NCBI RefSeq assembly: GCF_963921235.1
Contig: NC_086097.1
Span: 35,218,001 to 35,282,000 of the forward strand
Length of the DNA stretch: 64,000 nucleotides
Source: Mobula hypostoma
Lineage: Eukaryota
Reading direction: 5' to 3'
Positions 19,079 through 50,991 of this stretch are shown one piece after another (positions within the stretch are counted from its first letter, which is position 1; each line of letters begins with the position of its first letter). A program made the translations under genes and the position numbers. The notes below the pieces were generated by a model. The model saw nothing but the letters and a program-made list of their open reading frames with translations. It made no database searches and had not been told where the DNA came from.

Positions 19079-19436
19079 TAGCTTACAATTGAATATGTTT
19101 TTTTAATTAGTAGAGAAGAGGTGATAAAGAATAGGTATTAAATGGATCCTTAAAAATCAATTTTTCTATGCTGAGCAATATTTTAAATGCTCTTGCAGTT
19201 CATGTTCAAGTTTAGTGTTAACTATCTTGGCATACATACACAGGGTTTGCATAACATGCAAGTTAGATTTTTGCAGCAACAGCTCAGTAGATTACAAACA
19301 TGACTACATAAGTTAACAGCGAACTAAATTAACATAAACTGTACGTAACTTATACATTCCGGGTCACACCTATTTGAAATGATACACTTATTGCTTTGCC
19401 AGCATCACAGGTTAACAACGGATGTGAAACAAGTAA

Positions 19437-21680: not shown

Positions 21681-22187
<507 letters not shown>

Positions 22188-23041
22188 TAATAACAAAGTT
22201 CTGTTTAGCGTGCTATTGTGCTGTAAGTGTTAGCTTTGACTTGTGGCAGCCCTTTGTAATGTAGTCCTGTTAGAGCGAAATTACATTTCTGAAATTGCAA
22301 AGATACCACCTCATTTATCTTGTAGAGTGAACGTTCCGGGTTTTTGACAGGGATAGCACTTTATGAAAATGATGGCCAGTGGTTCCACAAAATATTTGGT
22401 TTCCTGTCTATAAAGCAAAAGAAAAAGTTAGTTGTGGACTCAAACACATTGTAGATCTTGAAGCAATTCCCTGATGGAATTTATAAGTAAAGTTCGGGGA
22501 ACCGAACGCTTTGCAACTATGTACCTTCCTGGGGAAATAAACAAAAAGATCAATTATTCAGATACATTTATAACTAGAGTTGTAGTTAAAATGTGTAAGT
22601 TTGCAAGATCACCCACAGTTTTTAGGTATGGTTAAAATGATTAGAAAAATAGTTACAAACTGAAGGTTCATACATAGTGAGCTGAAACATTTTGTTGCTA
22701 TGCCTACAATAATTAGAAGCTAAAAGGACAGCCACGGATGCTGGAAATCTGATGCTAGAAATGTATTCCAGGTTGCTGTAATCTGAAGTGAAGGTAGCAT
22801 TTTGTGTCACAGTTGGCACTGCCATTCTGACACCAGCAGCCAGTCTGTTCTGTTCGTGTAAGGATGATCATCCGTCTTTCTTGTTCAGGAAATTCTTGTT
22901 TCAGATCCCAGCAGAAACTTCACTGAAGCACAATCAGCCAGTGACCTTTAGACAGGTTACACCCCATATTAGGGTGTTCTCCAGAAAGTAGTAGATTGAT
23001 CTTAAGTGTACCAAGTGTACAACTGTGCAAGTGTTCCATTA

Positions 23042-23340
23042 TTAGGCATCCGTTAGTCTCGTGAGACCATAGATTTGCGCCTTGGAGGGTTTCCAGGGTG
23101 CAGGCTTGGGCAAGGTTGTATGGAAGACCGGCAGTTGCCCATGCTGCAAGTCTCCCCTCTCCACGCCACCGATGCTGTCCAAGGGAAGGGCACTAGGGCC
23201 GATGCAGCTTGGTACTGGTGTCGTCGCAGAACAATGTGTGGTTAAGTGCCTTGCTCAAGGATACAACACGTTGCCTCAGCTGAGGCTCAAACTAGGGACC
23301 TTCAGGTCACTAGACCGACACCTTAACCACTTGGCCACGC
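23042..23340 (-). mobile_element. Full-length tRNA-derived SINE with 15-bp TSD
   Basis: The - strand begins CGTGGCCAAGTGGTTAAG (A box) and carries GTTTGAGCC (B-box-like); TSD GCAAGTGTTCCATTA at 23027-23041 and 23341-23355. Confidence 0.88.
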
Positions 23341-23519
23341 GCAAGTGTTCCATTACTCCACCACTATCCCTAAAACCACAGTGTCTTTCAAAACTAATAT
23401 GAATTAATAAGACTTTTCACCCAGCAGAAAATTATATGAATGTTTGCCTTAATATTATATTAAATAACTGGGTGGATAAATAATATTACCTACCTGGTCA
23501 TCTGAATGCCATTCCATAA

Positions 23520-24030
23520 TCTAGAACAAAGAACTGCGTAGTAAATGAACAGGCCTTTTGGTCAACAATGTTGTGCTGAACCAGTGAAATTAGTTATCAA
23601 GTGGCTAACTAAACTAAGGTCTTCTGCCTAAATAATATCCACATCCTTCCATTTTCCTCACATCTCTAATGTATCTGCCTCTACCACCATCCCAGGCATG
23701 CACATTCAGACACCTACCACTTTCTGTTTCTCACAACTTGCCCCTCACATCTCCTTTGACCTTACCCCTCTCAGAAATGTATAGGAAAAAGATAGTGTCT
23801 GTCTACTCCATCTATGCCTCTTATAATGTTGTACATCCCTATCAGATCCTTCTCCAGCCTCTGCCGCACCAGAGAAAACAAAAGTTTGTTCAACCTCTTG
23901 TTATAGCACATGCCCTCTAATCCAGACAGCATCCTGGTAGATCTCTTCTGCACCCTCTCCAAAGCCTTGACATTCTTCCTATAATGCGGTGACCAAAACT
24001 GTGTGCTATACTCTAGATGTAATTTGAATT
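23520..24030 (-). mobile_element. CR1 LINE 3' fragment
   Basis: HLEYSTQFWSPHYRKNVKALERVQKR. Confidence 0.8.
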
Positions 24031-24269
24031 GTGTACTCCCATCCAAGGTTAGGCTTTTCTTCTAGGGTTCATCTGTGTTCCAGCAAAAGGCTTCTTCATT
24101 CTTTTGAGACCATGTGAATCATCTCTAGCACTTCTAGGACAGAGCTTTGTGCACTATAAACATGAGTCAGGCACTGACAAAAGTGCACATAAGTTCCCAT
24201 TCATTATGAATGGAAAGTGAGTTAAGACCCCAGTCAAACCCTGGCATGAATAGGCTGGAAAGTTAGAAT

Positions 24270-26197
24270 AGAAAGCTTAAAGGTAAAAAAGAAACTAAGA
24301 AGGTCATTAAGAGAGAAAAGATTAACTATGAAAGGAAGCTAGCAAATAATATCAAAGAGGATAATAAAAGCTTTTTCAAGTATATAAAAGAGTAAAAGAC
24401 AGGTGAGAGTAGATATAGGACCAATAGAAAATGATGCTGGAGAAATTGTAATGGGAGATAAGGAGATGGCAGAGGAACTGAACGAATATTTTGCATCAGT
24501 CTTCACTGAGGAAGACATCAGCAGTATACCGGACTCTCAAGGGTGGCAAGGAAGAGAAGTGTGCGCAGTCACAATTACGACAGAGAAAGTACTCAGGAAG
24601 CTGAATAGTCTAAAGGTAGATAAATCACCTGGACCAGATGGAATGCACCCTTGTGTTCTGAAGGAAGTAGCTGTGGAGATTGCGGAGGCATTAGCGATGA
24701 TCTTTCAAAAGTCGATAGATTCTGGCATGGTTCCGGAGGACAGGAAGATTGCAAATGTCACTCTGCTATTTAAGAAGGGGGCAAGGAAGCAAAAAGGAAA
24801 TTATTGACCTGTTAGCTTGACATCGGTGGTTGGGAAGTTATTGGAGTCGATTGTCAAGGATGAGGTTACAGAGTACCTGGAGGCATATGACAAGATAGGC
24901 AGAACTCAGAATGGATTCCTTAAAGGAAAATCCTGCCTGACAAACCTATTACAACTTTTTGAGGAAATTACCAGTAGGTTAGACAAGGGAAATGCGGTGG
25001 ATGTTGTATATTTGGATTTTCAGAAGGCCTTTGACAAGGTGCCATACGTGAGGCTACTTAACAAGATAAGAGCCCATTGAATTACGGGAAAGTTACATAC
25101 GTGGATAGAGCGTTGGCTGATTAGCAGGAAACAGAGTGGGAATAAAGGGATCCTATTTTGGTTGGCTGCCGGTTACCAGTGGTGTTCCACAGGGGTCTGT
25201 GTTGGGGCCGCTTCTTTTTACATTGTACATCAACAATTTGGATTATGGAATAGATGGCTTTGTGACTAAGATTGCTGACGATACGAAGATAGGTGGAGGA
25301 GCCGGTAGTGCTGAGGAAACAGAGAGTCTGCAGAGAGACTTGGGTAGATTGGAAGAATGGGCAAAGAAGTGTCAAATGAAATACAATGTTGGAAAGTGTA
25401 TGGTTATGCACTTTGGCAGAAGTAATAAATGGGCAGACTATTAATTAAATGGGGAAAGAATTCAAAGTTCTGAGATGCAATGGGACTTGGGAGTCCTCGT
25501 ACAGGATACCCTTAAGGTTAACCTCCAGGTTGAGTCGGTAGTGAAGAAGGTGAATGCAATGTTGGCATTCAATTCTAAAGGAATAGAGTATAGGAGCAGG
25601 GATGTGATGTTGAGGCTCTATAAGGCGCTGGTGAGACCTCACTTCGAGTACTGTGGGCAGTTTTGGTCTCCTTATTTAAGAAAGGATGTGCTGACGTTGG
25701 AGAGGGTACAGAGAAGATTCACTAGAATGATTCCGGGAATGAGAGAGTTAACATATGAGGAACGTTTGTCCGCTCTTGGACTGTATTCCTTGGAGTTTCG
25801 AAGAATGAGGGGAGACCTTATAGAAACATTTCGAATGTTGAAAGGCATGGACAGAGTGGATGTGGAAAAATTGTTTCCCATGATGGGGGAGTCTAGTACG
25901 AGAGAGCATGACTTAAGGATTGATGGGCGCCCATTCAGAACAGAAATGTGAAGAAATTTTTTTGGCCAGAAGGTGGTGAATCTATGGAATTTGTTGCCAC
26001 GGGTGGCAATGGAGGCCAAGTCATTGGGTGTATTTAAGGCAGAGATTGATAGGTATCTGAGTAGCCAGGGCATCAAAGATTATGGTGAAAAGGCAGGGGA
26101 GTGGGACTAAATGGGAGAATGGATCAGCTCATGATAAAATGGCGGAGCAGACTCGATGGGCCGAATGGCCGACTTCTGCTCCTTTGTCTTATGGTCT
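24270..26197 (+). mobile_element. CR1 LINE (5'-truncated, RT domain with stops and frameshifts)
   Basis: ORF pieces 24403-25951 with KSPGPDG, LDFQKAFDKVP, SGVPQGSVLGP, ADDTK; tail GTCTTATGGTCT. Confidence 0.92.
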
Positions 26198-26204
26198 AAA
26201 ATGG

Positions 26205-26678
26205 CAGCAACACACACAAAGTGCTGGAGGAACTCAGCAGGCCAGACAGCATCGACGTTTTGGGTCAAAACCCTTTGGCAAGACTGGAGGAAAAAATGCT
26301 GAGGAGTAGATTTAAAAGGTGGGAGAGGGAAGAGAGAAACACAAGGTGACTGGTGAAACCTGAAGGGGAAGGGATGAAGTAACAGCTGGGAAGTAAATTG
26401 GTGAAAGAGACAGAAGGCCATGGAAGAAAGTAAAGGGGGGGAGGAGCACCCGAGGAAGGTGGTGGGTGGGCAAGGAGATGAGGTGAGACATGGAAAAGGG
26501 GATGGGATATGGTGAAGGAGAGAGGGGTTTGGGGGGCATTACCACGAGTGTGAGAAGTGTGTTCATGCCATCAGGTCGAAGGCTACCCAAACAGAATATA
26601 AGGTGTTGTTCCTCCAACCTAAGTGTGGCCTCATCACGACAGTGGAGGAGGCTATGGATAGTCATATCGGAATGGGAG
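26205..26678 (-). mobile_element. Penelope-like element 3' fragment (end of GIY-YIG endonuclease plus pseudo-LTR)
   Basis: LLHCRDEATLRLEEQHLIFCLGSLRPDGMN resembles the PLE ORF C-terminus; followed by the same pLTR found in the hammerhead-bearing mini-elements, with a degenerate core. Confidence 0.8.
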
Positions 26679-27149
26679 TAGTAAGCAAGTTTTAAGTCTC
26701 TAAATGAAATTTTATTTGCGTTAGGAATATTTTGTGTGAGGTGGATGAGTATGCCTCATAAAATATTCGGAAGTAGGATGTCAGTCTTGCTGGCTATTGT
26801 AAAACCTATCCATTTGTTCAGTGCAGCGTAGGAACAGCAATGTGCGTTGGGAGATGAATTTAAATCATGGCTACTTACATTGTGTTGCCAATTGTACAGA
26901 GGTAGATTGGATCTGACAACAGGAGGGATCTGAGATTTGCTAGGAAGCTAAAATGTTTAGGGTTTGAAATATCCTTGAATGATTGAAGATTTGACCATGT
27001 CTTCATCCACATCTTTCTGAGACCCAGCCAAGTGTTGTTTTTCTTTCAAGTTCAAAGCAGAGCTGAAGTAGAAAGTCAATGTTGTAAAACAAGTCCATTT
27101 GTTCAGTGTATTGTAGGAACTGCAATATGTGTTGGGACTAATTGTAAAG

Positions 27150-27790
27150 CAAATACAGGTACATAATTCATTGAAAGTGGCGTCACAGGTCATAAAGAAA
27201 GCTTTTGGCACATTGGCCTTCATAAATCAACATATTGAGTACAGGAGATGGGAAGTTACATTGAAGTTGTATAAGACATTGGCGAGATCTGATTTGGAGT
27301 ATCGGGTGTAGTTTTGGTCACCTCCCTATAGGAGAAATGGTTGAAAGAGTGCAGAGAAAATTTACAAGGATGTTGGAGGATGTGAGTTATAAGGAAAGAT
27401 TGAATAGGTTAGGACTGTATTCTTTAGAACGTAGAAGACTGAGTGGGAATTTAATAGAGATATACAAAATTATAAGGGGTATAGATAGGGTAAATGCAAG
27501 CAGGCTTTTTCTACTAAGGTTGGGTGGAACTACAAACAGAGGTCATGGCTTAAGGGTGAAAGGTGAGAAGTTTAAGGGGAACATGAACGTCTTCACTCAG
27601 AAGGTTATGAGAGTGTGGAATGAACCGCCAGCACAAGTGGTCCATGCGAGCTTGATTTCAAGGTTTAAGAGAAGTTTGGATGGTAGGGTTGTGGAGGGCT
27701 ATGGTCCAGGTGCAAGTTGTTGGAAGTATGCAGCTTAAATGATTTTGGCATGGACTAGATGGGCCGACGGGCCTGTTTCTGTGCTTTACT
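27150..27790 (+). mobile_element. CR1 LINE 3' fragment
   Basis: ERVQRKFTRML...LGLYSLERRRL...RGHGLRV. Confidence 0.85.
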
Positions 27791-27839
27791 TCTCTGCGAC
27801 TCCATGACTCTGAAGTACACTTGGAAGATGGTGATCAGG

Positions 27840-28030
27840 TGTGTTTCCCGTGGGCGCTCCAATTTCCTCCCACGTTCCAAAGACACACGGTTAGGGTTAA
27901 TTAGTTGTGCAGGTGTGGCAACCTTTGCGAACTGCTCAACTCAATCCTCGCTGATTTGATTTGACACAAATGAAGCATTTCACTGAATGTTTCGATGTAC
28001 ACGTGGCACAGGAAGCTAATCTTTAATCTT
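27840..28030 (+). mobile_element. V-SINE-like fragment
   Basis: GTTTCC..GGGCGCTCC..TTTCCTCCCAC..TCCAAAGAC core and a TCTTTAATCTT tail. Confidence 0.55.
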
Positions 28031-28523
28031 CTATCTTCTACCCCACACCCATTAAAGGATTTACCATTTGTTACCCCAGCCCTTCACTCCCTAGTATTTC
28101 AAATATTCTAGAAATAATCCTGTAACCCAACACTAGCCGATCTCCTCCCACTCACCAGGTTTAATCCTCTCTCCCCCGCCCCCCCCCAGTTTACTCATAA
28201 CCCTGAGAATTCCCAATCCCTTACCCCCATCCTCTCCTTCATTCTCCTCTCCTCACTTTACTCTTCTTCCTCCCTCCCTCCCTTCTTACCTTCTCCTGGC
28301 CGATACCACTAACACTGGTGTTGGTGTACAGTCACCAGCTGCCTGTCAGCATGATAAGTAAAGACAAAGGCTCCTGATCATAGTTCTTGCTGCAGCCACC
28401 CTGCCCTCCGCACTCCTCCCACTGCTCCCACCCTCACTCCTTCACTCACTTGTGTCACAACACTGAAAAATGGTAAGTACCAGAGTACACCCTGGAGGAG
28501 AAAATCGGTCAATGCTTATTATA

Positions 28524-28833
28524 AACACAAGAAAGTCTGCAGATGCTGGAAATCCAGAGCAACACACACAAAATGCTGGAGGAACTCAGCAGGTCAGGCA
28601 GCATTTATGGAAAAGAGTAAATAATGATTGTTTCAGACTGAGACCCTTCTTCTGGACTGAGAAAGCAGGGGGATTTTCCAGCTAGCCTCTTTCCCCTCCC
28701 CTCACCTTTTTATCCTGACATCTTAACCCTTTCTTCTCAGTTCTGAAGAAGGGTCTTGCCCCGAAATGTTGAATGTTTTATCTTTTCCATAGATGCCTCC
28801 TAACTTGCTGAGTTCGTCCGGCATTTTGGGTGT
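28524..28833. mobile_element. Penelope-derived inverted-repeat mini-element (older; two degenerate hammerheads)
   Basis: TSD AATGCTTATTATA at 28511-28523 and 28834-28846; the left arm is the reverse complement of the right arm. Confidence 0.85.
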
Positions 28834-31070
28834 AATGCTTATTATATTCTATGTCTGAATTTTCTTCTATTTAAATTAATAAAAGGAAACATGGTCTTGC
28901 AATTTATAGATTAGTAATTCTCCTGATGGATCCTCTCAGTGCTCTGACAACAGTCTCTGCACAAGAGATCAAGCTTAAACAAATGAAATAATAAGGTACA
29001 GCAGGGTATGTGATTCATAGTGCCAAAAGCTTGCAGTCTCTAACCTGGTCATGGCTAAATTTACAGAAAGCATAATGCCATAGCAACAACTACCTGCCCA
29101 GTATTATGCTTAAGAAGAACAGTTTGTAGAGATTGCATTTCCAAAGGAACGTTTCAGTACAATGTTCTGGCACAGATCTACTTGTGAAGGTTCAACCAGT
29201 GTGATTCTAATGCGTTCTTTGGGTGTGCACCAATCACAGTATATTGGCAGTGTTGTTCTGTGAAGTTTGAACTGGAATGGTCAACACTCCAAACAATCTA
29301 CTTGATCCCCAGTTGAAAAATGCCACAAGACCAGTTCACAGTGCCCAGTGCACTAACCTATCAATGGTCATTAGCAGTTAAATACCTAGAGCAGTAAGTT
29401 AGATGCAGACCTAAATTGATACGGATTAGCCTGGGTCTGCATCTGATTTAGATATGGCACACGTTGCCACAGCTGTGGATTGCGTCAATTAACTAAGGCC
29501 ATAAACGTGCTTCACAGGCATGCTACAACACCAAAGTTAATTTATTATCAAAGTACATTCATGTCACCATATTCTACCTGGAGATTCATTTCAACATGTG
29601 GAGAGAACCCAAACCTGCTGAGAAACTCTTAGATGCAGACTGGAGTGTGAGCTGCTCCATCACTCTGCTTCACACTTCCATATGCCTTGCAAAAAGGCCA
29701 TAAGTTTCTTTTTCATTACTTGACAAAACTTCTAGGATTTTCAGTCGCATATTCAATCCTTTGACTTTAGGTGACCGTATCCCTCCAAATCACAGCTGAC
29801 TAGAATTTTCTGATTCCCGTCTCTTCGTTCTCTCCACACTAAGTCCCTGCTTTGTAGGTCCGAGACATGCAAGTGGGAATCATGATACTAATGAGCTGGT
29901 TAGAGAAAACCACGAGCTGTGATCACCCAGTGGAGATACCTTTTCTCTTGTGGTGATGCTGAAAATTATGCTTTACTGAGTTTTGCATTTGCTTCCAGCC
30001 CATTCTAGTATAGACTATCAACCAGAAAATATAATTTAAGATTAGCTATTTTCCTTTACCCACACAAGAATGATTTCTATGATTTTCTTTTCCTGTTTGT
30101 TGTTTTTTTTATACATAACATATTACAGACCACCCAATAGTCAACGAGAATTGGAAGAGCAAATCTGCAGGGAAATAGCAAGCAACTGCAGGAAACATAA
30201 AGTTGTGGTAGGGGATTTTAATTTTTCATACATTGATTGGGACTCCCCTACTGTTAGGGGTCTGGATGGTTTAGAGTTTGTAAAATGTGTTCAGGAAAGT
30301 TTTCTAAATCAATATATAGAGGGACCAACTAGAGGGGATGCAATATTGGATCTCCTGTTAGGAAACAAGTTAGGACAAGTGACGGAAGTCTGTGTAGGGG
30401 AGCACTTTGGTTCCGGTGATCATAACACCATTAGTTTCAACTTGATCATGGACAAGGATAGATCTGGTCCTAGGGTTGAGGTTCTTAACTGGAAGAAGGC
30501 CAAATTTGAAGAAATGAGAAAGGATCTAGAAAGTGTGGATTGGGACAGGTTGTTCTCTGGCAAGGATGTGATCGGTAGGTGGGAAGCCTTCAAAGGAGAA
30601 ATTTTGAGAGTGCAGAATTTGTATGTTCCTGTCAGGATTAAAGGCAAAGTGAATAGGAATAAGGAACCTTGGTTCTCAAGGGATATTGCAACTCTGATAA
30701 AGAAGAAGAGGGAGTTGTATGACATGTATAGGAAGCAGGGAGTAGATAAGGTGCTTGAGGAGTATAAAAAGTGCAAGAAAATACTTAAGAAAGAAATCAG
30801 GAGTGCTAAAAGAGGACATGAGGTTGCCTTGGCAGTCAAAGTGAAGGATAATCCAAAGAGCTTTTACAGGTATATTAAGAGCAAAAGGATTGTAAGGGAT
30901 AAAATTGGTCCTCTTGAAGATCAGAGTGGTCACCTATGTGCCGAACCAAAGGAAATGGGGGAGATCTTAAGTAGACAACAGGAATTCTGCAGATGCTGGA
31001 AATTCAAGCAACACACATCAAAGTTGCTGGTGAACGCAGCAGGCCAGGCAGCATCTATAGGAAGAGGCGC

Positions 31071-31106
31071 AGTCGACGTTTCAGGCCGAGACCCTTCGTC
31101 AGGACT
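31071..31106 (-). ncRNA. Minimal type I hammerhead ribozyme motif (mirror copy)
   Basis: Exact reverse complement of 31126-31161. Confidence 0.8.
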
Positions 31107-31125
31107 AACGTTAGTTAACTTCGTT

Positions 31126-31161
31126 AGTCCTGACGAAGGGTCTCGGCCTGAAACGTCGACT
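31126..31161 (+). ncRNA. Minimal type I hammerhead ribozyme motif
   Basis: Stem I AGTC/GACT; core CTGACGA; stem II AGG-GTCTCGG-CCT; GAAA; palindromic ACGT stem III; GUC site with predicted cut after 31157. Confidence 0.82.
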
Positions 31162-33707
31162 GCGCCTCTTCCTATAGATGCTGCCTGGCCTGCTGCGTTC
31201 ACCAGCAACTTTGATGTGTGTTGCTTGAGATCTTAAGTAGGTTTTTTGCGTCTGTATTTACTAAGGAAACTGGCATGAAGTCTATGGAATTAAGGGAAAC
31301 AAGTAGTGAGATCATGGAAACTGTACAGATCGAAAAGGAGGAGGTCCTTGCTGTCTTGAGGAAAATTAAAGTGGATAAATTCCCGGGACCTGACAGGGTG
31401 TTCCCTCGGGCCTTGAAAGAGACTGGTGTTGAAATTGCAGAGGTCCTGGCAGAAATATTTAAAATGTCGCTGTCTACAGGTGAGGTGCCAGAGGATTGGA
31501 GAGTGGCTCATGTTGTTCCGTTGTTTAAAAAAGGATCGAAAAGTAATCCGGGAAATTATAGGCCGGTAAGTTTAATGTCGGTAGTAGGTAAGTAATTGGA
31601 GGGAGTACTAAGAGACAGAATCTACAAGCATTTGGATAGACAAGGACTTATTAGGGAGAGTCAACATGGCTTTGTGTGTGGTAGGTCATGTTTGACCAAT
31701 CTATTGGAGTTTTTCGAGGAGGTTACCAGGAAAGTGGATGAAGGGAAGGCAGTGGATATTATCTACATGGACTTCAGTAAGGCCTTTGACAAGGTCCCGC
31801 ATGGGAGGTTAGTTAGGAAAATTCAATCGCTAGGTATACATGGAGAGGTGGTAAATTGGATCAGACATTGGCTCAATGGAAGAAGCCAAAGAGTGGTAGT
31901 AGAGAATTGCTTCTCCGTGTGGAGGCCTGTGACTAGTGGTGTGCCACAGGGATCAGTGCTGGGTCCATTGTTATTTGTCATCTATATCAATGATCTGGAT
32001 GATAATGTGGTAAATTGGATCAGCAAGTTTGCTGATGATACAAAGATTGGAGGTGTAGTAGACAGCGAAGAAAGTTTTCAGAGCCTGCAGAGGGACTTGG
32101 ACCAGCTGGAAAAATGGGCTGAAAAATGGCAGATGGAGTTTAATGCAGACAAGTGTGAGGTATTGCACGTTGGAAGGACAAACCAAGGTAGAACATACAG
32201 GGTTAATGGTAAGGCACTGAGGAGTGCAGTGGAACAGGGATCTGGGAATACAGATACAAAATTCCCTAAAAGTGGTGTCACAGGTAGATAGGGTCGTAAA
32301 GAGAGCTTTTGGTACATTGGCCTTTATTAATCAAAGTATTGAGTATAAGAGCTGGAATGTTATGATGAGGTTGTATAAGGCATTAGTGAGGCCAAATCTG
32401 GAGTATTGTGTTCAGTTTTGGTCACCAAATTACAGAAAGGATATTAATAAGGTTGAAAGAGTGCAGAGAAGGTTTACAAGGATGTTGCCAGGACTGGAGA
32501 AATTCAGTTACAGAGGAAGGTTGAATAGGTTAGGACTTTATTCCCTGGAGCGTAGAAGAATGAGGGGAGATTTGATAGAGGTATATAAAATTATGATGGG
32601 TATAGATAGAGTGAATGCAAGCAGACTTTTTCCACTGAGGCAAGGGGAGAAAAAAACCAGAGGACATGGGTTAAGGGTGAGGGGGGAAAAGTTTAAAGAG
32701 AACATTGGGGGGGGTGGCTTCACAAGAGAGTGGTGGGAGTATGGAATGAGCTGCCAGACGAGGTGGTAAATGCGGGTTCTTTTTTAACATTTAAGAATAA
32801 ATTGGACAGATACATGGATGGGAGGTGTATGGAGGGATATGGTCCGTGTGTAGGTCAGTGGGACTAGGCAGAAAATGGTTCAGCACAGCCAAGAAGGGCC
32901 AAAAGGCCTGTTTCTGTGCTGTAGTTTCTATGGTTCTATGGAGCCAGGTGTATGGTCTGCAAGGATTAGCCTAAGCATTTATGCATTTGTAAATCAGAAA
33001 GCAGATACAGTGAGAGGCACGACCTTAATCTGAGTGATTGACTTTGAGAGGCCACTACTGCTGCGGTGCTAATCAAGAGTAAGAGGGGAATATTATAGAG
33101 AACAGGATAATAAAATGTAAGATAAGAATATTCTTTAAATAATAAATGGTGTGAGGCTTTAGCAGATGCACTCTTTGCAGTGAACGGTGTGTCAGGATTT
33201 ATGTGATTGAATCACAGTAGTAGATAAAGGTTAGTACATTGATGAGAGCCTCCGGGAGCTTGCTGTCACAAGTGGTAAGACCCAGGCATTGACATGATGG
33301 CACGATTCAGCCATTCCTAGAATTACCAAGTCTTAAGGGAGATTGTTTTACAGTTGCAGCCCTCTGCGGATTGCCATTTCCCACCTTGATAGCCACTGGT
33401 GTACTGTGTACAGAAATCCCAGGTTAGGCATTATGTTCCTGAAATTTTAAGTCCCAACGTAAACAGTGCAATATATATCTCTGAAAAATGCATAATAAGT
33501 CTCCAGGGACACATGCCTTGCAAGTTTATCAGCTCGCAGAATGGATTTCCATTATCTGAATGATCAACACAATGGAAATGCATATGGATACACTAGGATA
33601 TGCCTCACGGAAGGTTCCAGCAGGAAGTGAAACTTAATGGCAATCTGTTTGTCAGCAATAAAATTGTCATGTTTTAAAATGAGCTCAAAGAAATTCCAGT
33701 AACTCTT

Positions 33708-34162
33708 ATCAGAATCGGGTCTATTATCACTGGCATGTGATGAGAAATTTGTTAACTTAGCAGCAGCAGTTCAATGCAATAGATAATCTAGCAGAGAGGA
33801 AAAAATAATAGTAATAAATAAAATAAAACAAAACATAATAAACAAGTAAATTAATTATGTGTCTTAAATAGATTTTAAATGTGCATAAACAGAAATACTG
33901 TATATTTAAAAATAAGTGAGGTAGTGTCCAAAGCTTCAACGTTCATTTAGGAATCGGATGGCAGAGGGGAAGAAGCTGTTCCTGAATCACTGAGTGTGTG
34001 CCTTCAGACTTCTGTATCTCCTACCTGATGGTAACTGTGAAAAAGAGGCATGCCCTGGGTGCTGGACGTCCTTAGTAATGGATGCTGCCTTTCTGAGGCA
34101 CCGTTCCCTAAAGATGTCCTGGGTACTTTGTAGGCTAGTGCCCAAGATGGAGCTGACTAGAT
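33708..34162 (-). mobile_element. Rex1/Babar-type LINE 3' end
   Basis: TCAGAA tail; GGGAAGAAGCTGTTCCTGAATC and CCTGATGGTAAC motifs; related copies at 39270-39633 (+) and 49960-50965 (-). Confidence 0.7.
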
Positions 34163-34989
34163 CCTTAAAGGGTTTGAATACCCAGCAAAGAAGATTTCCA
34201 TAGGTATTCCCATATTGATCTTTTTCTTATTGACCTGGTGTAATATTGTTTGGGATGAAAAATCATCTGTTACTTTTAAACGACCAGTGTGTTTACAGTT
34301 TTTAACATTAAATGAATGAAGTAGAACTATCAGCTTTTCTTCCTCTAAATGGTCAGTGCCTCTACTTCCATTTGCTTTTGTCTCCATCATCTCTTTTGCT
34401 TCAGGAGTCTTCCCTCCCTTCTTACACATTCTCTGTTAACACATCTTCCCTTTCTTCACCCAATTCTTCTGTTTTTCTCTTGGAAGTGCAAAACTCTTAT
34501 CATTCTTTCCCAGTGCTATTTTCAACCAACTATAGCCATTTCCACTTGTAAGTGGCCTGTTCTTTCCCCCGACTGGCTGCCTTTAGTTTGGCTGTCCAGC
34601 TGTATATTTTGGCATCCTATCAGTAAGGTAGGAAGAGTAGCACCCTTGAAACATTAATATAATCGAGTCATAGAATACTACAGCACATAAACGGACCCTT
34701 TGGCCCATCTAGCCCCTGCCGAACTATTAATCTCTTTAGTCCCACCAACCTGCACCTGGACCATCCACGTTCCTCTCCAAATTTCTCTAAAAAGGTCGAG
34801 ATCAAACCTACATCCCCCCACTTCCATTGGCAACTTGGTGATGCCTGACTGACAGATTTTCTAGATTGACAGATCTAACTTCTATTGCTGACCCAATGCA
34901 CATTCAATTTGTTTTTTTTTATTAGATGTTACCTGTTGATATAATAAGTAATTAATATAAAGTTGTAGTACTACAAATAGTTTGGGGAA

Positions 34990-35203
34990 ATAGGACCTCA
35001 GTGAGTTTGGGGGGGGTGAAACTGGGCTCTAGTGAATTTAAAGAGGGTGTGGTAACTGGGGCCTCAGCAAATTTATAGGGAGCAGAGCAAGCAAGGTATG
35101 GTGAATTTAAAGAGAGCACTGGAAATAGACCCCTGGTGAATTTAAAGAGGGTGTAGGATTTGAGGCCCCAGTGAGTTTAAAAAGAGCATGGAAAAAGAGG
35201 CCA
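34990..35203. repeat. Degenerate minisatellite, about 35-bp unit, about 6 copies
   Basis: GTGAATTTAAAGAG-like core starting at 35001, 35032, 35067, 35101, 35136 and 35171. Confidence 0.75.
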
Positions 35204-37159
35204 AAGTAAGGTAGATGCCTAACTATCTATATCAAAAAATCACCAAGTGGATTATTTGACAGAGTTGAAATCCAGAAGTTGTCATTGAGTTTTTGTTGAG
35301 AGGTGGTACTTATCAAAAAAAATAATTTTCAGCGTCACAGTGGAAAAACAACTATTGCTTTTTAATATTTCCAGGCATGAACTGCCCTTTGCAAATTGTA
35401 TTATTTTTATCAGGCCAATTATATTAAATCTGGACATCTCCATAGTCTTATACTATCTTCGTCTACAGCAGCTAATTAAGCTAGATACTCAGCTTAGGTC
35501 CTGACCCCTAACAATGGAAAAAAAACATCATTTTCCAGAATGAGTTATTTTGGAAATGCTGAATTTGATTGATTTAACATTAAAAACTAATTAGCTGGTG
35601 TTGATGGCTTTATGATGAAACTTGTTTTTCTAAAATTAAAAGTGGTTACATTTAAATTCTGCTTATTAGTGAAGCTGAAAATTATCCACAGCTGTTTAAG
35701 TATTCAGTGGTCATACATATGATTAGAACAAATATCCGAGTCAAGCAGGAATTAAATAATTGTTCTGCTGTTCCCCCTTTCTAAAGTATGAACAATTAGA
35801 CAATAAGTTTTGAATGTAAATATGTCAAATAATAATTTTAAAATAGTAATTCAAATGTTAAAGAGATTTTTAAACAATTCAATTATTTATCAACAGTCTT
35901 TGCACTACCGATATACAAAATTTTGAATCAAAGACTATGCATCTTTATTCATTGATGTCAATTACTGAGAATGTAACTCTTAAACTGAGAGTGGTCACAA
36001 CATACATAGAAGGTAAAATATGATGTATACAATTATTTATCGTTTGAAAAGGGGAAATTTCAGCAGAGAAGCTTGTTAATAATCATTTGTAATAATGGAA
36101 TGCTACTTAGCATAAAATTAAGTGTATTGTCTGCCAATCATATATTTAATGGATATGCAAATCATATAAAATGAATTGGATAATCTGCTTGTTTTCACAT
36201 TTTCAAAAAATAGAAATAAAAGCATTTCTGGCACTGCTGCAATTGTGCTAAGCTATGCCAGTAAAAAAAAATTTCAAGATAAAATCATTAATTTTGTCAC
36301 ATTGTAACTAGATTCAAATATATTCCTACATTTGATTCTTATGGCTATTTTATATTCAACCAGTATACATAGAAAATTAGACATACAAATGGACTTTGTC
36401 TGTGAGGAATTCTTTAACGGAAGCATGTACTGAACTGTTTAATTTTATTTTACATCATTAGAACTGCCAATATTTTTATCTGCTACAGTCAGGGAGAAAT
36501 AACAAGTTCAGTTTGTGATTTGCACACATCCAGAGATGTGAAAACAATGATTAAGAATGGAGCAGGTAGAATAAAATGCCAAAAAAATCATCTGATCAGT
36601 CTATTTTTAATTTATTAACAGAAGGAGTTTGCAGGTTAATTTGCAAAAGGACAATCTATCTTAATAAAGACATCATAAGTGTGATTTTTCAAAAATACAA
36701 ATTAATAGGTTTATTTTTACCTCTACTTCCTTTCCCAAACCAAATTTATTTGCATAATATGAAATATTTTTGAGGTGCAACATTCAATAAATCAGCACAT
36801 TAGACTTCTTATCATCGTGATAATTAAATTCCGTAGGCCTTGCTCAGAGGTTATTTGGCCCTTGTGAGCTGAGCACTTATCAATGCCAAAGGCTAAGTGT
36901 TATTTTTTAACTTTGATCTTGGCTTTACCAGAGTTGTTGCCAAATACAGCTAGAACATTTTTTTTGCTGTGGTATCACTAATATTTTCATGGTTCAAAGG
37001 GTACATTCTTGTTAAATAATTTGACAGTGCAGTTACAATAATCTCTTCAGCCATTCCTTTCTCTGGCCATGATTTGCTTCACACTGTCAGTTGTAATCAA
37101 GCTGCAAATAAAGTCTCAATTTCTGAGAGTCTATATTGTGCTCTAACAGTCTGAAATAA

Positions 37160-37330
37160 AAGCCCCAAAATGCTGGAAACACTCAGAAGGTCAGGAAGCA
37201 AATGGAGAAAGAGAAACAGGTTAGAAACCTGAGGCTAACAACAAAAGATTTCTGACCTGTTTCTCTTTCCACAGATACCGCCTGACCTTTTGAGTTTTTC
37301 AAACATTTTCTCTTTCTTTAGATCTGCAAT
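37160..37330. mobile_element. Old Penelope-derived inverted-repeat element
   Basis: AAAGAGAAACAGGTTAGAAA pairs with TTTCTGACCTGTTTCTCTTT; ATGCTGGAAACACTCAG at one end and TGAGTTTTTCAAACATTTT at the other. Confidence 0.65.
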
Positions 37331-38491
37331 TTTATTTTCAATTTGCTACTTCAGTTCAACATACCTTTTAGGGTACTCTTCCAAAGCAATAATTAAAATA
37401 ACTTGGGTGTTACTACTAAGAATTACGTGCTTGCCGTAAAGGGAAAATCTATGCTCGCTGTACTGTTTTGTGCTCCTTTTGTACACACATACAAATTCTA
37501 CCCTCTTTTCTAATTGCACAACTGATTTCTGTCAGAACATCAGTCAGCTTATAGCTATTACTTGTACTGATATTATCATCTGTGTTTTCATCCAGTAGAC
37601 ATTTACTTATTAATATTGAAATCCAGACACATAATAACTGCTTTTAACCTTAACATTAGGCTGTGTTTAAAAACTCCATCTGTTTCTGTGGCGAGCATTT
37701 TGTTTTGAGATTACTATGTCATGATGGCATGGGATGGTGGGAGGGAGGAGAGATGTGGAATGAAGGGCTGAGGAACTGAAGAAAAATTGTCCAACCTTTA
37801 AATGCCTCTTATAACTGTAGGGAAAAAAATCATCTCAATTTCTTGCAGAAGCCCAGTGTCTGACAGGAGTTGCATAGAATAATTAATGGCTTTTGAACCT
37901 GAAAGCTACCTGTCACAAGCACAGACAAATTGGTGAATTCTTGCTGCCTTTATTGTGATTTCAAATATCCTCAAATACTTACGCCTAACTTACTGTTAAA
38001 TGAATGACTCGTACTTTATTATTACACAGGATCAGAAGGTTATCTCAAATTTTTATTTGTGTGTGTGTGCGGAATTATATTATTGTATATGGTTCTTTCA
38101 AAATCTTAATTAAAAGTAACATCAATGCATTTGATTATTAATCCCTCCCCTATGATCCATAGCCTCAATAAATCTGGGTTACGAGGGTTCCAACAATTGC
38201 TGCATTAATGGAAATGCTGCGGAAATCAGAATTTAAAGTTCATAATTTAAACTAAAGGTCTAGACATTGGAAGACTGAAAGTAAATAGGTAATACTTCCA
38301 CAGAAAAATCACAGGTATGATGGGCCAAATAGACTACACCTGTCTTATATAATTCAGATTCTGTTTGCATGATACCTGTCAACAACTAAAATTATATTTG
38401 GCTTTGTCTTTAATAACAACATCTGGATAATTCCCATTACCCCATATACCTGGCCTGTGGAGAATAACGAGTTGAAGGAGGTTGTTGTTCT

Positions 38492-39052
38492 AAAGTTCAA
38501 TGTAAAATTTATTATCAGAATACATACAAGTCACCACATACAACCTGAGATTATATTTCCTGCAGACACACTCTGCAAATCTATAGGACAGTAACTGTAC
38601 AACAAACAGCAAACTGTGTAAATACAAATATAAATAGAAAAACAGTAACAAGATAAAGAGTCCTTAAAGTGAGACCATCAGTTGCGGGAACACCAGAAGT
38701 AGAATGAATGTAGTTATCCCCTTTTGTTCAAGAGCCTGATGGTTGAGGGGCAGTGACTGTTCCTGAAGCTGGTGGTGTGAGTCCTGAAGAACTTGTACCT
38801 TCTGCCTGATGGCAGCAGTGAGAAAAGCACATGGCCTGGGCGGTGAGGGTCTTTGATGGATGCTGCTTTTCTACGTGATGTTTTATGGAGATGTGATCAA
38901 TGGGGAGGGTTTTACCCCGTGATGTACTGGGCCAAATCCGCTACCTTTGTAGAATCTTCCGCTCAAAGGCATTGGTGTTCCCATACCGGTCCATAATGCA
39001 GCCTGTCAGCACTCTTTCCACCATGCACCTTTAGAAGTTTGACAAGGTTTTT
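38492..39052 (-). mobile_element. Rex1/Babar-type LINE 3' fragment
   Basis: GAGCCTGATGGTTGAGGG...CTTCTGCCTGATGGCAGCAG...GGCATTGGTGTTCCCATACC. Confidence 0.65.
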
Positions 39053-39269
39053 GTCTAGTCTTAAGATTTGAGTCGTAAATCTGAATTTTCTTCAGGTTGT
39101 GAATGAAAGGTGGAACAAACCAAGCCCTCTGAAGGGGTGGGCAAGTTTAGATAGGAAATCAAATCTGCGGGTGACTGTGCAGAATAAAAAAAAAGTTATT
39201 TGTGGAAGGAGGAACATTTTGGTCCGAGGATTAAATTAGCTTCATCTTCAAGGAGTGGTGTCTCAGAAA

Positions 39270-39633
39270 GGCAGCGTCCATTATTAAGGACCTCCAGCAT
39301 CCAGGGCATGCCCTTTTCTCACTGTTACCATCAGGTAGGAGGTACAGAAGCCTGAAGGCACACACTCAGCGATTCAGGAACAGCTTCTTCCCCTCTGCCA
39401 TCTGATTCCTAAATGGAATTGAACCCTTGGACACTACCTCACTTTTTAAAAACATATAGTACTTCTGTTTTTTGCAAGATTTTTAATCTATACTGTATAT
39501 TCAGTATACTGTATAAAGTATACTGAATAAGATTTATTATTTTTTCTTCTAGATTATGTATTGCATTGAACTGCTGCTGCTAAATTAACAAATTTCACAT
39601 CACATGCCAGTGATAATAAACCTGATTCTGATT
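39270..39633 (+). mobile_element. Rex1/Babar-type LINE 3' end
   Basis: Reverse complement of the 33708-34100 copy; GATTCT-repeat tail. Confidence 0.7.
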
Positions 39634-39824
39634 CACTGCTTGTCCCTCTAAATGAATTCACAGACATTCTGGTCATATCCATTATCTGAGCAACATTAAT
39701 TAATGAACAAGAGGTTGCTGACACTCAAAGGATTTCAAAGTAAAATTAAATGTAATTTAATAAGATGGAGAGGGAATTAGTGGATATTGATTGCCTTGAT
39801 TAGCAAAGCCTGTAAGGAATTTAT

Positions 39825-40017
39825 TTGTTCTCCTGGTGGCTGCTTGAGTTTCCTCCGGGTGCTCTGCTTTCCCCCCACAGTCCAAAGATATACCAGTCGG
39901 CAGATTAATCGGTCATTGTAAATTGTCCCATGATTAGGCTGGGATTAAATCGGGGGATTGCTGGGCAGCATGGCTTGGAGGGCCTATTCTGTGCTGTAGC
40001 TTAATAAATCAATAAAT
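39825..40017 (+). mobile_element. V-SINE (HE1-like) fragment
   Basis: GTTTCCTCCGGGTGCTCTGCTTTCCCCCCACAGTCCAAAGA core; 3' GGGCCTATTCTGTGCTGT and AATA tail. Confidence 0.65.
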
Positions 40018-40892
40018 AGATGTTGTAGTAGTATTATGTTTTTTTCAGTTTCTAACATTAGGTTTCTGAGTTTTATTTCATGCTGATCAAAACTTCTGTA
40101 ACGCTAGAGCAGGTTATTATAGGATAGACGATATAAAGATGGACCTGAATATTTTACCACAAATTGACTATTTCAAAGCGTTAATTGCAGACAGAGATTG
40201 TATCCAAATCCAAAACAGTAACCTAAATTGTATATTTTTCGGATTTGGCTGGTGTAAGGGACAGAATTTTTAGTGGCTGAAATATCAAACTGTTGTTATG
40301 AAATGTATTCAGTAGTTTGAAAGGTAATTTACTTTGAACTTTGACTGATCTCTGAAAGAATTAGGGTTAAGTTGAGGCTGCAGATTGGTTCTAAAATGCA
40401 GAGCTGTTTATGCTTTTGGGTTGAACATACTCTTCTAATTACTCGCATCCATACATGATAGTACCCACATGTGCTTAATTCATAATGGACTTGAAGAAGA
40501 AAGACAATAAAAACAGGCTGCCGATATTACACAAATCCCACAATGGTATCAACATCAGTAGAGCAGAGTGTAAAATAATCATTTGCTCATATAATTTTTG
40601 GACCAAATTTTACCCTGATATCGTTACGTCAGCTGGCAGAATGCACTGCAATTGCAAATAAACACTTCTGGTAAAAAGCACATCGGAAAAATAATATAAA
40701 AGACAATATACAGTAGATTAAGGTCTATTAGTTCATGTTGGTTTTTACAAATTTAATTTAACAATGAATAAATCATTGTCAGAATTCTAAAAATATCAGA
40801 AAGAATATTGAATAAAGAGGGCCATATGACTTGGTGCCTGACCTTAAGCGCATCACACCTGCACCATTTAATCCTCCAAGGGTCACAGAAAA

Positions 40893-41335
40893 GTCATAGA
40901 ACACTACTGCACAGAAACAGGCATTTCAGCCCATCTAGTCTGTGCCAAACCATTAACTTGCCTAGTCCCATCCACCTGCCCCTGGATCATAACTCTCTCA
41001 TCCATCTATCTATCCAGAGTTCTCGTAAATGTTGATATTGAGCCTTCATTCACCACTTCTGCTTGCTCACACACTCATCACCCTCTGAGTGAAGAAGGCC
41101 TCCCTCATGTTCCCCTTAAACACCTTTTACCTTAACCCCTGACCTTTAGTTCCAGACTCACTCGGCCTCAGAAGAAAATATCTGCTTACTTTTACCCTCT
41201 CTGTATCTCTCATGATTTTGTATATCTCTATCAAATCTCCCCTCATTCTCCTACGCTCCAGGGAATCAAGTCCTAACCTACTCAACCTTTCCCTATAACT
41301 CAGGTCCTCAAATTTTGGCAACAACCTTGTAAATT
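40893..41335 (-). mobile_element. CR1 LINE 3' fragment
   Basis: LSYRERLSRLGLDSLERRRMRGDLIE. Confidence 0.8.
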
Positions 41336-41963
41336 TGAAAAGCTTCCCTTCGTGTCCTTGTATGTGTCCTGCTACACAGGTAGTAGTGAGACAGATTTTT
41401 CTGTGTTGTACTTGGATAAAACCAATTGCCCAAGCAAAGGACGTTGAGGGAACATGAGTGCATTTATAGATCCTGCTGATTTCAGCATCAGCAGATGAGG
41501 AAAAAGATTGGACATCCTGTGCAACCTACTCAGACTCACTCTGACACCTTTCAGCTGAGAAAATTTGCCCATTTCAACTTGGACAAGAAATAACATTGAA
41601 CACCAAGTAAAAAGAAATATTCATCACAATGACAATACATGTCAATAATTGTACCATAAACAACATTTTGGATGCCTGTCAGTGGATCATACTTGCATTT
41701 TCATTATTAATGAACAATGCGAAAACTTAATGCACTTTAGGGAATTATTAAAGTATGGCTCAGAATACAGTGGTTTAGCTCATCATAACTGCATTGACTC
41801 TTTTGGAACTCATCAAATAGTCTCATAAATCCCTGGGCCCATGGGCTTTCTACATAGATTTGTCAAACAAATGTGTGTTTTGCTCTTTCTCTCTCTCCCT
41901 CTCTCTCTCTTTCATTTTGGTATCTTTTACAAAATAACATGATTCAATATCTATTGATTTCAG

Positions 41964-50965: not shown

Positions 50966-50991
50966 GGCGTAAGCCATGTTGCTTGTCTATT

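What the first reader, a model, noticed from the sequence alone, without database searches (positions are those of the whole stretch)
30961..31240. Perfect 225-bp palindrome with an intact hammerhead ribozyme on both strands, recently inserted with a 14-bp TSD
Seen: 107-bp arms with no mismatches (31004-31110 and 31122-31228), an 11-nt spacer, a 29-nt unpaired extension on the left, and TSD GAGATCTTAAGTAG splitting a CR1 ORF2. Each arm holds AGTC-CTGACGA-AGG(N7)CCT-GAAAC-GTC-GACT, a complete type I hammerhead core with a loopless palindromic stem III. Established: Penelope-like elements carry such minimal hammerheads in their pseudo-LTRs, and these generally cleave as dimers. Inference: this is a non-coding, ribozyme-bearing mobile unit whose palindromic core reads the same from either strand and can switch between a long rod-like hairpin (ribozyme off; ADAR/Dicer substrate) and a hammerhead fold. 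This recalls retrozymes and viroid-like RNAs, here inside a K+ channel intron.
Basis: partly seen in the sequence, partly recalled or inferred. Interest (0 to 1): 0.85.

Follow-up and report, generated by a model that had tools for sequence, protein, structure and literature searches.

The report
Truncated Penelope-like retrotransposon, inverted-repeat insertion
The perfect palindrome is a young, heavily shortened copy of a very abundant Penelope-like retrotransposon, inserted in the head-to-head form with a one-sided tail that is usual for these elements, so it is ordinary and not a new ribozyme-carrying mobile unit.

Summary
There are 107-nt perfect arms, an 11-nt spacer, a 29-nt extension on one side and a 14-bp target-site duplication (TSD). 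Eleven of 11 paralogous LINE copies show the uninterrupted site.

Both arms are the last 107-136 nt of a ~3.5-kb autonomous Penelope-like element (PLE). This PLE has an RT plus a C-terminal GIY-YIG open frame and a pseudo-LTR (pLTR) with a minimal hammerhead. The family is huge: its 3' tail gives 55,484 hits and its hammerhead box 72,430.

Head-to-head arms, a tail on one end only and a 13-16-bp TSD are the published PLE insertion architecture (PMC8557442, PMC11167929), and they recur here:
- 3 more cases lie in this window.
- 12 of 20 tail-selected insertions have it.
- 1,712 loci have a junction just upstream of the hammerhead box.

This copy's junction is unique in the genome. No Rfam hammerhead model matches it. 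The motif fits the PLE "min-HHR", which needs a second sense copy, and each strand of this palindrome carries only one. Interest is low.

The parts
30961..30974 (.). Left copy of the 14-bp target-site duplication GAGATCTTAAGTAG
   Evidence: direct repeat D1; 11 of 11 paralogous LINE copies carry the 14-mer once, with both flanks contiguous.
30975..31003 (-). 29-nt 'tail': the extreme 3' end of the PLE unit (sense on the - strand), present on this arm only
   Evidence: Matches positions ~3484-3512 of a natural 3,512-bp unit. The 33-mer holding it has 55,484 genome matches.
31004..31110 (-). Tail-bearing arm: 5'-truncated PLE 3' end, sense on the - strand
   Evidence: inverted repeat I1. (reference positions 3512-3378, 99.3%).
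31070..31102 (-). Minimal hammerhead motif of the left arm (sense on the - strand)
   Evidence: Motif dissected. No Rfam hit.
31111..31121 (.). 11-nt junction filler TTAGTTAACTT between the two arms. Partly element-like (CTTC) and partly a repeat of the adjacent TTAGT/ACTAA motif.
   Evidence: The 29-nt junction is unique in the genome.
31122..31228 (+). Tail-less arm: second 5'-truncated copy, sense on the + strand. It ends at the upstream of the two 3' end points (reference ~3481-3483).
   Evidence: The same outer end window (reference 3469-3491) is seen in other tail-less arms.
31130..31162 (+). Minimal hammerhead motif of the right arm; predicted cleavage after C31157
   Evidence: No Rfam hit.
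31227..31240 (.). Right copy of the 14-bp target-site duplication
30046..32769 (+). Host: decayed LINE ORF2 (AP-type endonuclease, then RT) split by the insertion
   Evidence: open frames. (Exo_endo_phos_2 E 2.8e-10; RVT_1 E 1.8e-29).
21681..42416 (+). Context: intron of a KCNH5/KCNH1-like potassium channel gene, bounded by exons at 21681-22187 and 41958-42416
   Evidence: Ion_trans, Ion_trans_2. (E 7.6e-82 to KCNH5).

Best explanation
The 252-bp insert is a dead-on-arrival, extremely 5'-truncated insertion of an abundant, recently active Penelope-like element (PLE). It consists of two inverted copies of the element's last 107-136 nt, joined head to head and flanked by a 14-bp TSD.

Most likely mechanism (inferred):
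1. The PLE endonuclease cut both target strands 14 bp apart.
2. Both 3' ends primed reverse transcription of the same element RNA. One started at the outer and one at the inner of two fixed start points about 30 nt apart, which gives the one-sided 29-nt tail.
3. Both cDNAs stopped about 14-20 nt upstream of the hammerhead box.
4. Each then used the other as template after short, partly abortive template switches, which produced the 11-nt filler.

The result is a perfect palindrome at birth. It has no coding capacity and no known means of moving again. Its hammerhead motifs are passengers from the pLTR. In any transcript through it, for example the KCNH pre-mRNA, the single sense ribozyme is locked in a 107-bp duplex.
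For: SHOWN: identity of the arms.
- They match the 3' end of a natural 3,512-bp unit at 99.3% and 98.2%.
- That unit (L034) is a partial tandem with a 1,043-aa open frame. The frame carries RVT_1 (residues 534-697) followed by a C-terminal GIY-YIG (946-1020). The hammerhead box and tail are repeated on both sides of it.
- Its homologues carry PF00078 and, in 12 of 65, PF01541 in precomputed annotation.

SHOWN: abundance.
- 55,484 tail matches.
- 72,430 hammerhead-box matches.
- 202,223 first-look candidates for the endonuclease.

SHOWN: the architecture recurs.
- Three other insertions in this window have TSD + tail-bearing arm + inverted tail-less arm. They are 47207-47753, 50979-51223 and 28511-28846, with arm identities of 90%, 83% and 75%.
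- 12 of 20 insertions picked only by their tail have an abutting inverted copy.
- 1,712 loci have a head-to-head junction within 30 nt upstream of the box.
- Of 32 such loci fetched, all 32 have exactly one tail. Thirty-one show this by a motif test; L053 shows it by BLAST end points only.
- 22 of the 32 have a clean 13-16-bp TSD.
- 7 of those 22 have arms with 0 mismatches, like this one.

SHOWN: one template. Arms of one locus differ less than arms of different loci. The mean is 1.56 against 3.21 mismatches per 85 nt, and 6 of 16 pairs against 31 of 480 pairs are identical. Five of 21 loci were dropped for indels.

SHOWN: symmetry. Either arm can reach further inward. The tail-less arm is longer in 9 of 20, the tail-bearing arm in 8 of 20, and they are equal in 3 of 20.

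LITERATURE:
- PLE insertions are highly 5'-truncated. They often have an adjacent inverted 5'-truncated copy and a 30-40-bp tail at one end only, with the hammerhead in the pLTR (PMC8557442, passages).
- A purified PLE protein cleaves and extends both DNA strands. It starts reverse transcription at two adjacent internal RNA sites, and the interval between them is the tail (PMC11167929, main text).
Against: - The Pfam RT and GIY-YIG hits on the full-length relative are below Pfam's curated cut-offs (24.1 against 29.6 bits; 19.7 against 22.6 bits). The PLE assignment therefore rests on domain order plus architecture, and no PLE-specific profile or phylogeny was run.
- The two-primer, one-RNA mechanism is inferred from end points. 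No experiment or read data bears on this locus. Laid public contigs were short repeat pieces, and none spanned the site.
[quoted passage not shown] It therefore does not by itself explain why 32 of 32 palindromes here carry exactly one tail.
- One of 12 inverted insertions in the tail-selected sample has tails on both arms (L011).
- The 11-nt filler is not cleanly explained base by base.
Confidence: 0.92

Rival explanations
1. Same element and same event, but a different last step. A single target-primed cDNA snapped back on itself (hairpin self-priming) and copied itself, and the second target end was joined afterwards.
For: - The spacer is small (11 nt), and the arms are identical and share one template.
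- Part of the filler (GTTAGT after GGACTAAC) is the complement of the cDNA's own end, as an abortive snap-back would give.
Against: - A self-copy should run back through the tail, yet the second arm stops at the inner end point (reference ~3470-3485) in 31 of 32 palindromes by motif test.
- The loop should always belong to the first-made arm, yet either arm is the longer one (9 against 8 of 20).
- Many junctions have 0-2-nt spacers. Examples are GGACT|AGTCC and GTCAG-GA-CTGAC, the latter in 9 of the 50 loci listed. A hairpin loop that small is sterically unlikely.
Confidence: 0.2
2. One reading: a non-coding, ribozyme-bearing palindromic mobile unit, retrozyme- or viroid-like. It would propagate as such and switch between a rod and an active hammerhead.
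For: - The hammerhead core is complete on both strands.
- The rod fold is very stable.
- Animal retrozymes are proposed to derive from PLE pLTRs (bioRxiv 10.64898/2026.07.22.740005, abstract and passages).
Against: - The junction is unique in the genome.
- There are no tandem repeats.
- Even junction types that recur at many loci are independent events. Fourteen loci of two recurrent types have different TSDs, different outer arm ends and both tail orientations.
- Each strand has one sense ribozyme only, buried in a 107-bp duplex.
- The isolated arm's MFE fold is not the hammerhead fold: -13.0 kcal/mol against -7.7 for stems I+II, with z -0.82.
- PLE hammerheads cleave poorly in vitro, and in one case only with the element's protein. 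They are not needed for insertion.
Confidence: 0.03
3. Assembly fold-back artefact: the palindrome does not exist in the animal's DNA.
For: Palindromes are a known failure mode of assemblers. No public contig spanned the site.
Against: - The TSD is exact, and paralogous empty sites exist.
- The one-tail asymmetry is the same as in 32 of 32 other loci.
- Older copies of the same architecture have arms that have diverged to 75-90%. No assembler artefact would produce that.
Confidence: 0.02
4. A miniature inverted-repeat DNA transposon (MITE) with terminal inverted repeats.
For: Inverted arms flanked by a TSD.
Against: - The arms do not reach both termini, because one end carries a 29-nt tail.
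- TSD length varies among copies from 13 to 19 bp.
- The inner junction differs in every copy.
- The arms are the 3' end of an RT-encoding element.
Confidence: 0.01

Closest known systems
Canonical endonuclease-positive Penelope-like elements (Penelope/Poseidon, Neptune clades)
   Same: - A single open frame with RT then a C-terminal GIY-YIG.
- A pLTR made by partial tandem insertion.
- A minimal hammerhead in the pLTR.
- Strong 5' truncation.
- An adjacent inverted 5'-truncated copy.
- A ~30-nt tail on one end only.

   Different: Nothing of kind. This copy is an extreme case: only 107-136 nt per arm, with arms still identical. The clade was not determined. A C-x4-C-x2-C motif just upstream of GIY-YIG resembles the extra zinc-finger-like motif that PMC8557442 ascribes to Neptune and Nematis, but that comparison is from recall and was not tested.
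PLE minimal hammerhead ribozymes (min-HHR; Cervera and de la Pena 2014, PMC4209133)
   Same: - CUGANGA and GAAA boxes.
[quoted passage not shown]
- A short helix I (5 pairs including one G.U).
- No helix III loop, with a palindromic ACGU at 15.1-16.1.
- GUC at the cleavage site.

   Different: In this young subfamily the 10.1-11.1 pair is G.U, not the highly conserved G-C. Older copies in the window have C at 11.1. Helix II is 4 pairs, against the 7-8 reported for Schistosoma families. No Rfam model matches.
Twin priming / 5' inversion of LINE-1 insertions (recalled, no paper read here)
   Same: Both target-strand ends prime cDNA synthesis, and the two cDNAs are joined at microhomology, giving an inverted 5' part.
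   Different: In LINE-1 the two segments are different parts of one RNA, with no duplication. Here both arms cover the same stretch, and the two 3' end points are fixed about 30 nt apart.
Non-LTR retrozymes of animals
   Same: Hammerhead-bearing, non-coding, PLE-related sequence.
   Different: Retrozymes are head-to-tail tandem units that can be cut to monomers and circularised. This is a single head-to-head pair with a unique junction.

Membership tests
Penelope-like element (EN+) | Single ORF with reverse transcriptase followed by a C-terminal GIY-YIG endonuclease | tested here: met
   A natural full-length relative (L034) has a 1,043-aa open frame with RVT_1 at 534-697 (E 3.4e-5) and GIY-YIG at 946-1020 (E 1.1e-3). 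Both are below Pfam's curated cut-offs. Homologues carry PF00078, and 12 of 65 carry PF01541. The finding itself holds no ORF.
Penelope-like element (EN+) | Pseudo-LTRs formed by partial tandem copies | tested here: met
   In L034 the hammerhead box and tail occur at 1577-1609/1672-1704 and again at 5089-5121/5184-5216, on both sides of the ORF.
Penelope-like element (EN+) | Inverted 5'-truncated copy adjacent to the insertion | tested here: met
   The finding. Three more in the window. 12 of 20 tail-selected insertions. 1,712 loci with a junction near the box.
Penelope-like element (EN+) | 30-40-bp tail present at one end only | tested here: met
   29 nt here. Exactly one tail in 32 of 32 other palindromic loci (31 by motif, 1 by BLAST end points). 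11 of 12 in the tail-selected sample, the twelfth having two tails.
Penelope-like element (EN+) | The arms of the finding are homologous to the element's 3' end | tested here: met
   99.3% (reference 3512-3378) and 98.2% (reference 3373-3483) to the L034 unit.
Hammerhead ribozyme (PLE min-HHR type) | Conserved core: C3-U4-G5-A6-N7-G8-A9, G12-A13-A14, A15.1/U16.1, H17 | tested here: met
   CUGACGA ... GAA-ACGU-C read directly on both strands.
Hammerhead ribozyme (PLE min-HHR type) | [quoted passage not shown] | tested here: inconclusive
   The bulged A is present. The closing pair is G.U in this subfamily (GGGU/GCCU, 4 pairs). Older copies have GGG.../...CCC.
Hammerhead ribozyme (PLE min-HHR type) | Helix I, and palindromic 15.2-16.2 for dimer formation | tested here: met
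   UAGUC/GACUG (5 pairs, one G.U). ACGU is self-complementary.
Hammerhead ribozyme (PLE min-HHR type) | Match to a curated hammerhead covariance model | tested here: not met
   No hammerhead family at E<=10 in 30700-31500. This is expected for loopless helix III variants, which also escaped standard descriptors according to PMC4209133.
Hammerhead ribozyme (PLE min-HHR type) | Self-cleavage | not testable with these tools
   Needs an in-vitro assay. Published PLE hammerheads cleave weakly, as dimers or with the element's protein.
Retrozyme (non-LTR, animal) | Head-to-tail tandem units, each with a hammerhead | tested here: not met
   The only direct repeat around the site is the TSD, and the two copies are inverted.
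Retrozyme (non-LTR, animal) | Propagating non-autonomous unit with many copies of the same structure | tested here: not met
   The junction occurs once in the genome at <=2 mismatches.
MITE / TIR DNA transposon | Inverted repeats at both termini and a TSD of fixed length | tested here: not met
   One-sided tail. TSDs of 13, 13, 14 and 19 bp in the window and 13-16 bp elsewhere.

The most novel reading that the evidence does not exclude
The thousands of young head-to-head insertions of this family may be a genomic record of how PLEs integrate. Three observations fit a dimeric complex that primes both target strands on one RNA from two fixed start points:
- the strict one-tail rule (32 of 32);
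- arms that share one template;
- either arm being the longer one.

The two like-sense cDNAs can pair only at self-complementary motifs. Junctions pile up at the ribozyme's own palindromes. The GUC|GAC cleavage site within GTCGAC, and ACGU of helix III, give 114 loci, against 6 for a control shifted by 4 nt. This could mean one of two things. The palindromic helix III of PLE hammerheads might also serve at the DNA level in resolving integration. Alternatively, ribozyme-cleaved RNAs might be used as templates in vivo. A further unexcluded reading is that intronic palindromes like this one give long hairpin RNAs that feed small-RNA or editing pathways against the family.
Probability: 0.25. Interest if true: 0.5.

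Novelty: new member of a known kind. Interest (0 to 1): 0.15.

Why it matters
For this locus it matters little. It is one of tens of thousands of dead copies of a retrotransposon, sitting in an old LINE inside an intron.

It is useful as a caution. A perfect palindrome with a ribozyme on both strands is a routine by-product of Penelope-like integration in this genome, with about 1,700 close analogues. It should be masked as such and not reported as a new RNA element.

The family as a whole is of some value. It is very young and very numerous, so its junctions, tails and TSDs give a large natural data set on the poorly understood integration mechanism of Penelope-like elements.

Tried and rejected
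- Rfam scan for hammerhead models: no hammerhead hit. This does not count against the motif, because loopless variants are known to escape such models.
- DNA search of the genome with the whole arm: nothing returned, because very common words are skipped. Replaced by pattern searches.
- Public sequencing runs: no RNA holder listed. Four runs were laid, and all gave short repeat-derived contigs with none spanning the stretch. The palindrome at this locus, its presence in other individuals and its expression could therefore not be checked. Joints that skip ~267-272 nt come from paralogous LINE copies and are not an empty allele.
- Tail as a stable stem-loop, as reported for the Anolis element: not supported here (z +0.32).
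- Hammerhead fold as the preferred fold of one arm: not supported. The energy of the dimeric hammerhead could not be evaluated, because the structure is not nested.
- Covariation in helices I and II: not testable. The 83 motif instances collected were mostly the identical young subfamily, because the loci had been chosen by exact motifs.
- Earlier notes of this scan near the window: none.
- Propagation of recurrent junction types: rejected.
- CR1 clade of the host LINE and PLE clade assignment: not tested.


Full report
OBSERVATION.
- The arms are 31004-31110 and 31122-31228, 107 nt and 100% complementary.
- An 11-nt spacer lies between them.
- The 14-mer GAGATCTTAAGTAG is at 30961-30974 and 31227-31240.
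- Twenty-nine extra nucleotides (30975-31003) are on the left arm only.
- The inserted DNA is 252 bp. Two bases (GA) could belong either to the right arm or to the TSD.

The TSD is real. The stretch 31227-31254 has 4,579 matches (<=2 mismatches) in the genome, so the host is a repeated LINE. In 11 of 11 other copies examined, the window's left flank, one 14-mer and the right flank are contiguous.

The host frame has an AP-type endonuclease domain upstream of the site and an RT domain downstream. Whether it belongs to the CR1 clade was not tested.

The whole lies in an intron of a KCNH5/KCNH1-like potassium channel gene on the + strand.

WHAT THE ARMS ARE. The same sequence occurs elsewhere in the window. 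Every complete copy there has the same build: a TSD, an arm that carries a ~30-35-nt terminal extension, and an inverted arm that lacks it.
- 47207-47753: TSD 19 nt, arms 133 nt at 90%, 213 nt between them.
- 50979-51223: TSD 13 nt.
- 28511-28846: TSD 13 nt, arms 113 nt at 75%.
- 49785-49917 is a simple, non-inverted, 5'-truncated copy.

The window's own genome is 3.48 Gb. In it the 33-nt terminal stretch has 55,484 matches at <=2 mismatches, and the 33-nt hammerhead stretch has 72,430 at <=1 mismatch.

Longer copies run upstream into an open frame ending ...LQPDGMNIDFSNF*, with a GIY-YIG match. A search with that peptide gave 202,223 first-look candidates, and the 150 scored were all at >=98% identity.

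One natural copy (L034) shows the full layout:
- an upstream partial copy;
- the hammerhead box and tail repeated on both sides, 3,512 bp apart.

Both Pfam hits are below the curated cut-offs. Homologues (best 70% identity, an uncharacterised shark protein) carry PF00078, and 12 of 65 carry PF01541. RT followed by a C-terminal GIY-YIG, a pLTR from partial tandems and a hammerhead in the pLTR together define a canonical endonuclease-positive Penelope-like element (PMC8557442, passages). The finding's arms match the last 135 and 111 nt of that unit at 99.3% and 98.2%.

THE ARCHITECTURE IS THE FAMILY'S NORMAL OUTPUT. PMC8557442 states that PLE insertions are highly 5'-truncated. [quoted passage not shown] The data here agree.
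- Of 20 insertions taken in chromosomal order and chosen only by an exact tail, 12 have an abutting inverted copy. Eleven of those inverted arms stop at reference positions 3373-3491 and so lack the tail (ten of them at 3437-3491). One (L011) has tails on both arms.
- A palindromic pattern asking for two facing hammerhead boxes within 30 nt finds 1,712 loci, with many different junctions.
- I fetched 32 of these loci: the first 20 in order, plus 12 from two recurrent junction types. All 32 have exactly one tail. Thirty-one show this by a motif test, and L053 by BLAST end points.
- Twenty-two of the 32 have a clean 13-16-bp TSD. Two were doubtful, and in 8 my narrow search found none.
- Seven of those 22 have arms without a single mismatch.
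- The tail-less arms begin within a ~12-nt AC-rich window, (AA)GCAACACACATCAAAG. The finding's arm begins there too.

The finding is therefore a typical and very young member of this class. Its own junction is unique in the genome. Junction types that recur are also independent events. Fourteen loci of two types have different TSDs, different outer ends and both tail orientations.

HOW IT WAS PROBABLY MADE (inference). Frangieh et al. (PMC11167929, main text read) report three things about a purified PLE protein.
- It cleaves and extends both strands of the target.
- Reverse transcription starts at two adjacent internal sites of the RNA.
- The tail is the interval between those two sites.

The genomic footprints here fit a version of that scheme in which both target ends are primed on one RNA.
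- The arms of one locus are more alike than arms of different loci. The means are 1.56 and 3.21 mismatches per 85 nt. Six of 16 within-locus pairs are identical, against 31 of 480 between-locus pairs. Five of 21 loci were dropped because indels spoil the ungapped comparison.
- Either arm can reach further inward: 9, 8 and 3 of 20.
- Spacers of 0-2 nt are common.

These points argue against simple hairpin self-priming by one cDNA. That route should copy the tail back, should give the loop always to the same arm, and needs a loop of a few nucleotides. I keep it as a rival at about 0.2.

Two like-sense cDNAs can anneal only at self-complementary motifs. In keeping with this, junctions at GTCGAC/ACGT number 114 loci, against 6 for a pattern shifted 4 nt upstream. 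GTCGAC also spans the predicted ribozyme cleavage site, so use of cleaved RNA as template is an alternative that I could not separate. None of the 8 simple truncated copies starts at that site. The strict one-tail rule is not explained by the published in-vitro data, which saw no strand difference in start site.

In the finding, the 11-nt filler contains CTTC, which is element sequence continuing the right arm with one base missing. It also contains a short repeat of the neighbouring TTAGT/ACTAA motif. I read this as abortive template switching, but this is not shown.

THE RIBOZYME. The motif has every invariant core position: CUGACGA, GAA, A15.1, U16.1 and C17 at 31157. It also has these features:
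- an unpaired A after position 9;
- a 4-pair helix II;
- a 5-pair helix I;
- a loopless palindromic ACGU in place of helix III.

These are the traits of the PLE min-HHR of Cervera and de la Pena (PMC4209133, passages), with one exception. The 10.1-11.1 pair is G.U here, whereas older copies have C at 11.1.

No Rfam hammerhead model matches. The single arm does not prefer the hammerhead fold.

Published PLE hammerheads show low activity, as dimers or only with the element's protein, and they are dispensable for insertion in vitro. A transcript of either strand of the palindrome holds one sense and one antisense copy and folds into a rod (about -232 to -233 kcal/mol). I therefore expect no cleavage. 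The idea that the rod is a substrate for editing or dicing is reasonable for any long intronic hairpin, but it is untested, and no usable RNA data were found.

VERDICT. The link to Penelope-like elements and the recent insertion with a TSD are correct. The reading as a novel ribozyme-bearing palindromic mobile unit is not supported. This is a new copy of a known kind of element in its usual insertion form. Interest is low. The family-wide junction statistics are the only part that might repay further work.

Noticed in passing
window 47207-47753, 50979-51223, 28511-28846, 49785-49917, 18983-19084, 26206-26253: Six further copies or fragments of the same PLE family, of different ages. Three have the same TSD + tail-bearing arm + inverted tail-less arm build. 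One is a simple 5'-truncated copy with the direct repeat GCCAGTGTCC at both ends.
   Followed up: yes
own genome, e.g. G000:C1:10834980-10834997 and 113 other loci: Head-to-head junctions pile up at the element's own palindromes GTCGAC and ACGT, which are the predicted ribozyme cleavage site and helix III. There are 114 loci, against 6 for a control pattern shifted by 4 nt. Cleaved-template use and palindrome-mediated cDNA pairing could not be told apart.
   Followed up: partly
own genome, 14 loci L044, L048, L067-L078: Two junction sequences recur at many loci: a 2-nt spacer GA/TC, and GACTAACTGAAGGAAGTC. The loci have different TSDs, different outer ends and both tail orientations, so these are preferred switch points and not copies of one unit.
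   Followed up: yes
L011 (G000:C1:396078-402110): The one inverted pair, among 12 in the tail-selected sample, that carries tails on both arms. The arms are long (about 0.9 and 2.7 kb) and include the endonuclease-coding region.
   Followed up: partly
window 54227-59642 (- strand): An L1-like LINE with an uninterrupted 1,306-aa ORF2 (Exo_endo_phos, RVT_1, zf-RVT) and an upstream ORF1 with the L1 RBD-like domain (Transposase_22). It looks young.
   Followed up: no
window 14960-15214 (-) and 50410-50688 (-): Two short open frames match Pfam ALKBH8_N (E 6.8e-09 and 9.1e-06). Being repeated, they are probably part of a transposable-element family and not of a gene.
   Followed up: no
window 62877-63167 (+): Weak Lipase_GDSL_2 match (E 1.4e-05, below cut-off), possibly an esterase-type ORF1 of a LINE.
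   Followed up: no
homologues of the L034 open frame: Precomputed annotation lists PF28514 and PF26215 on nearly all homologues. The Pfam scan available here reported neither on the L034 frame at E<=0.01. The local library may differ, or the hits may be weaker.
   Followed up: no
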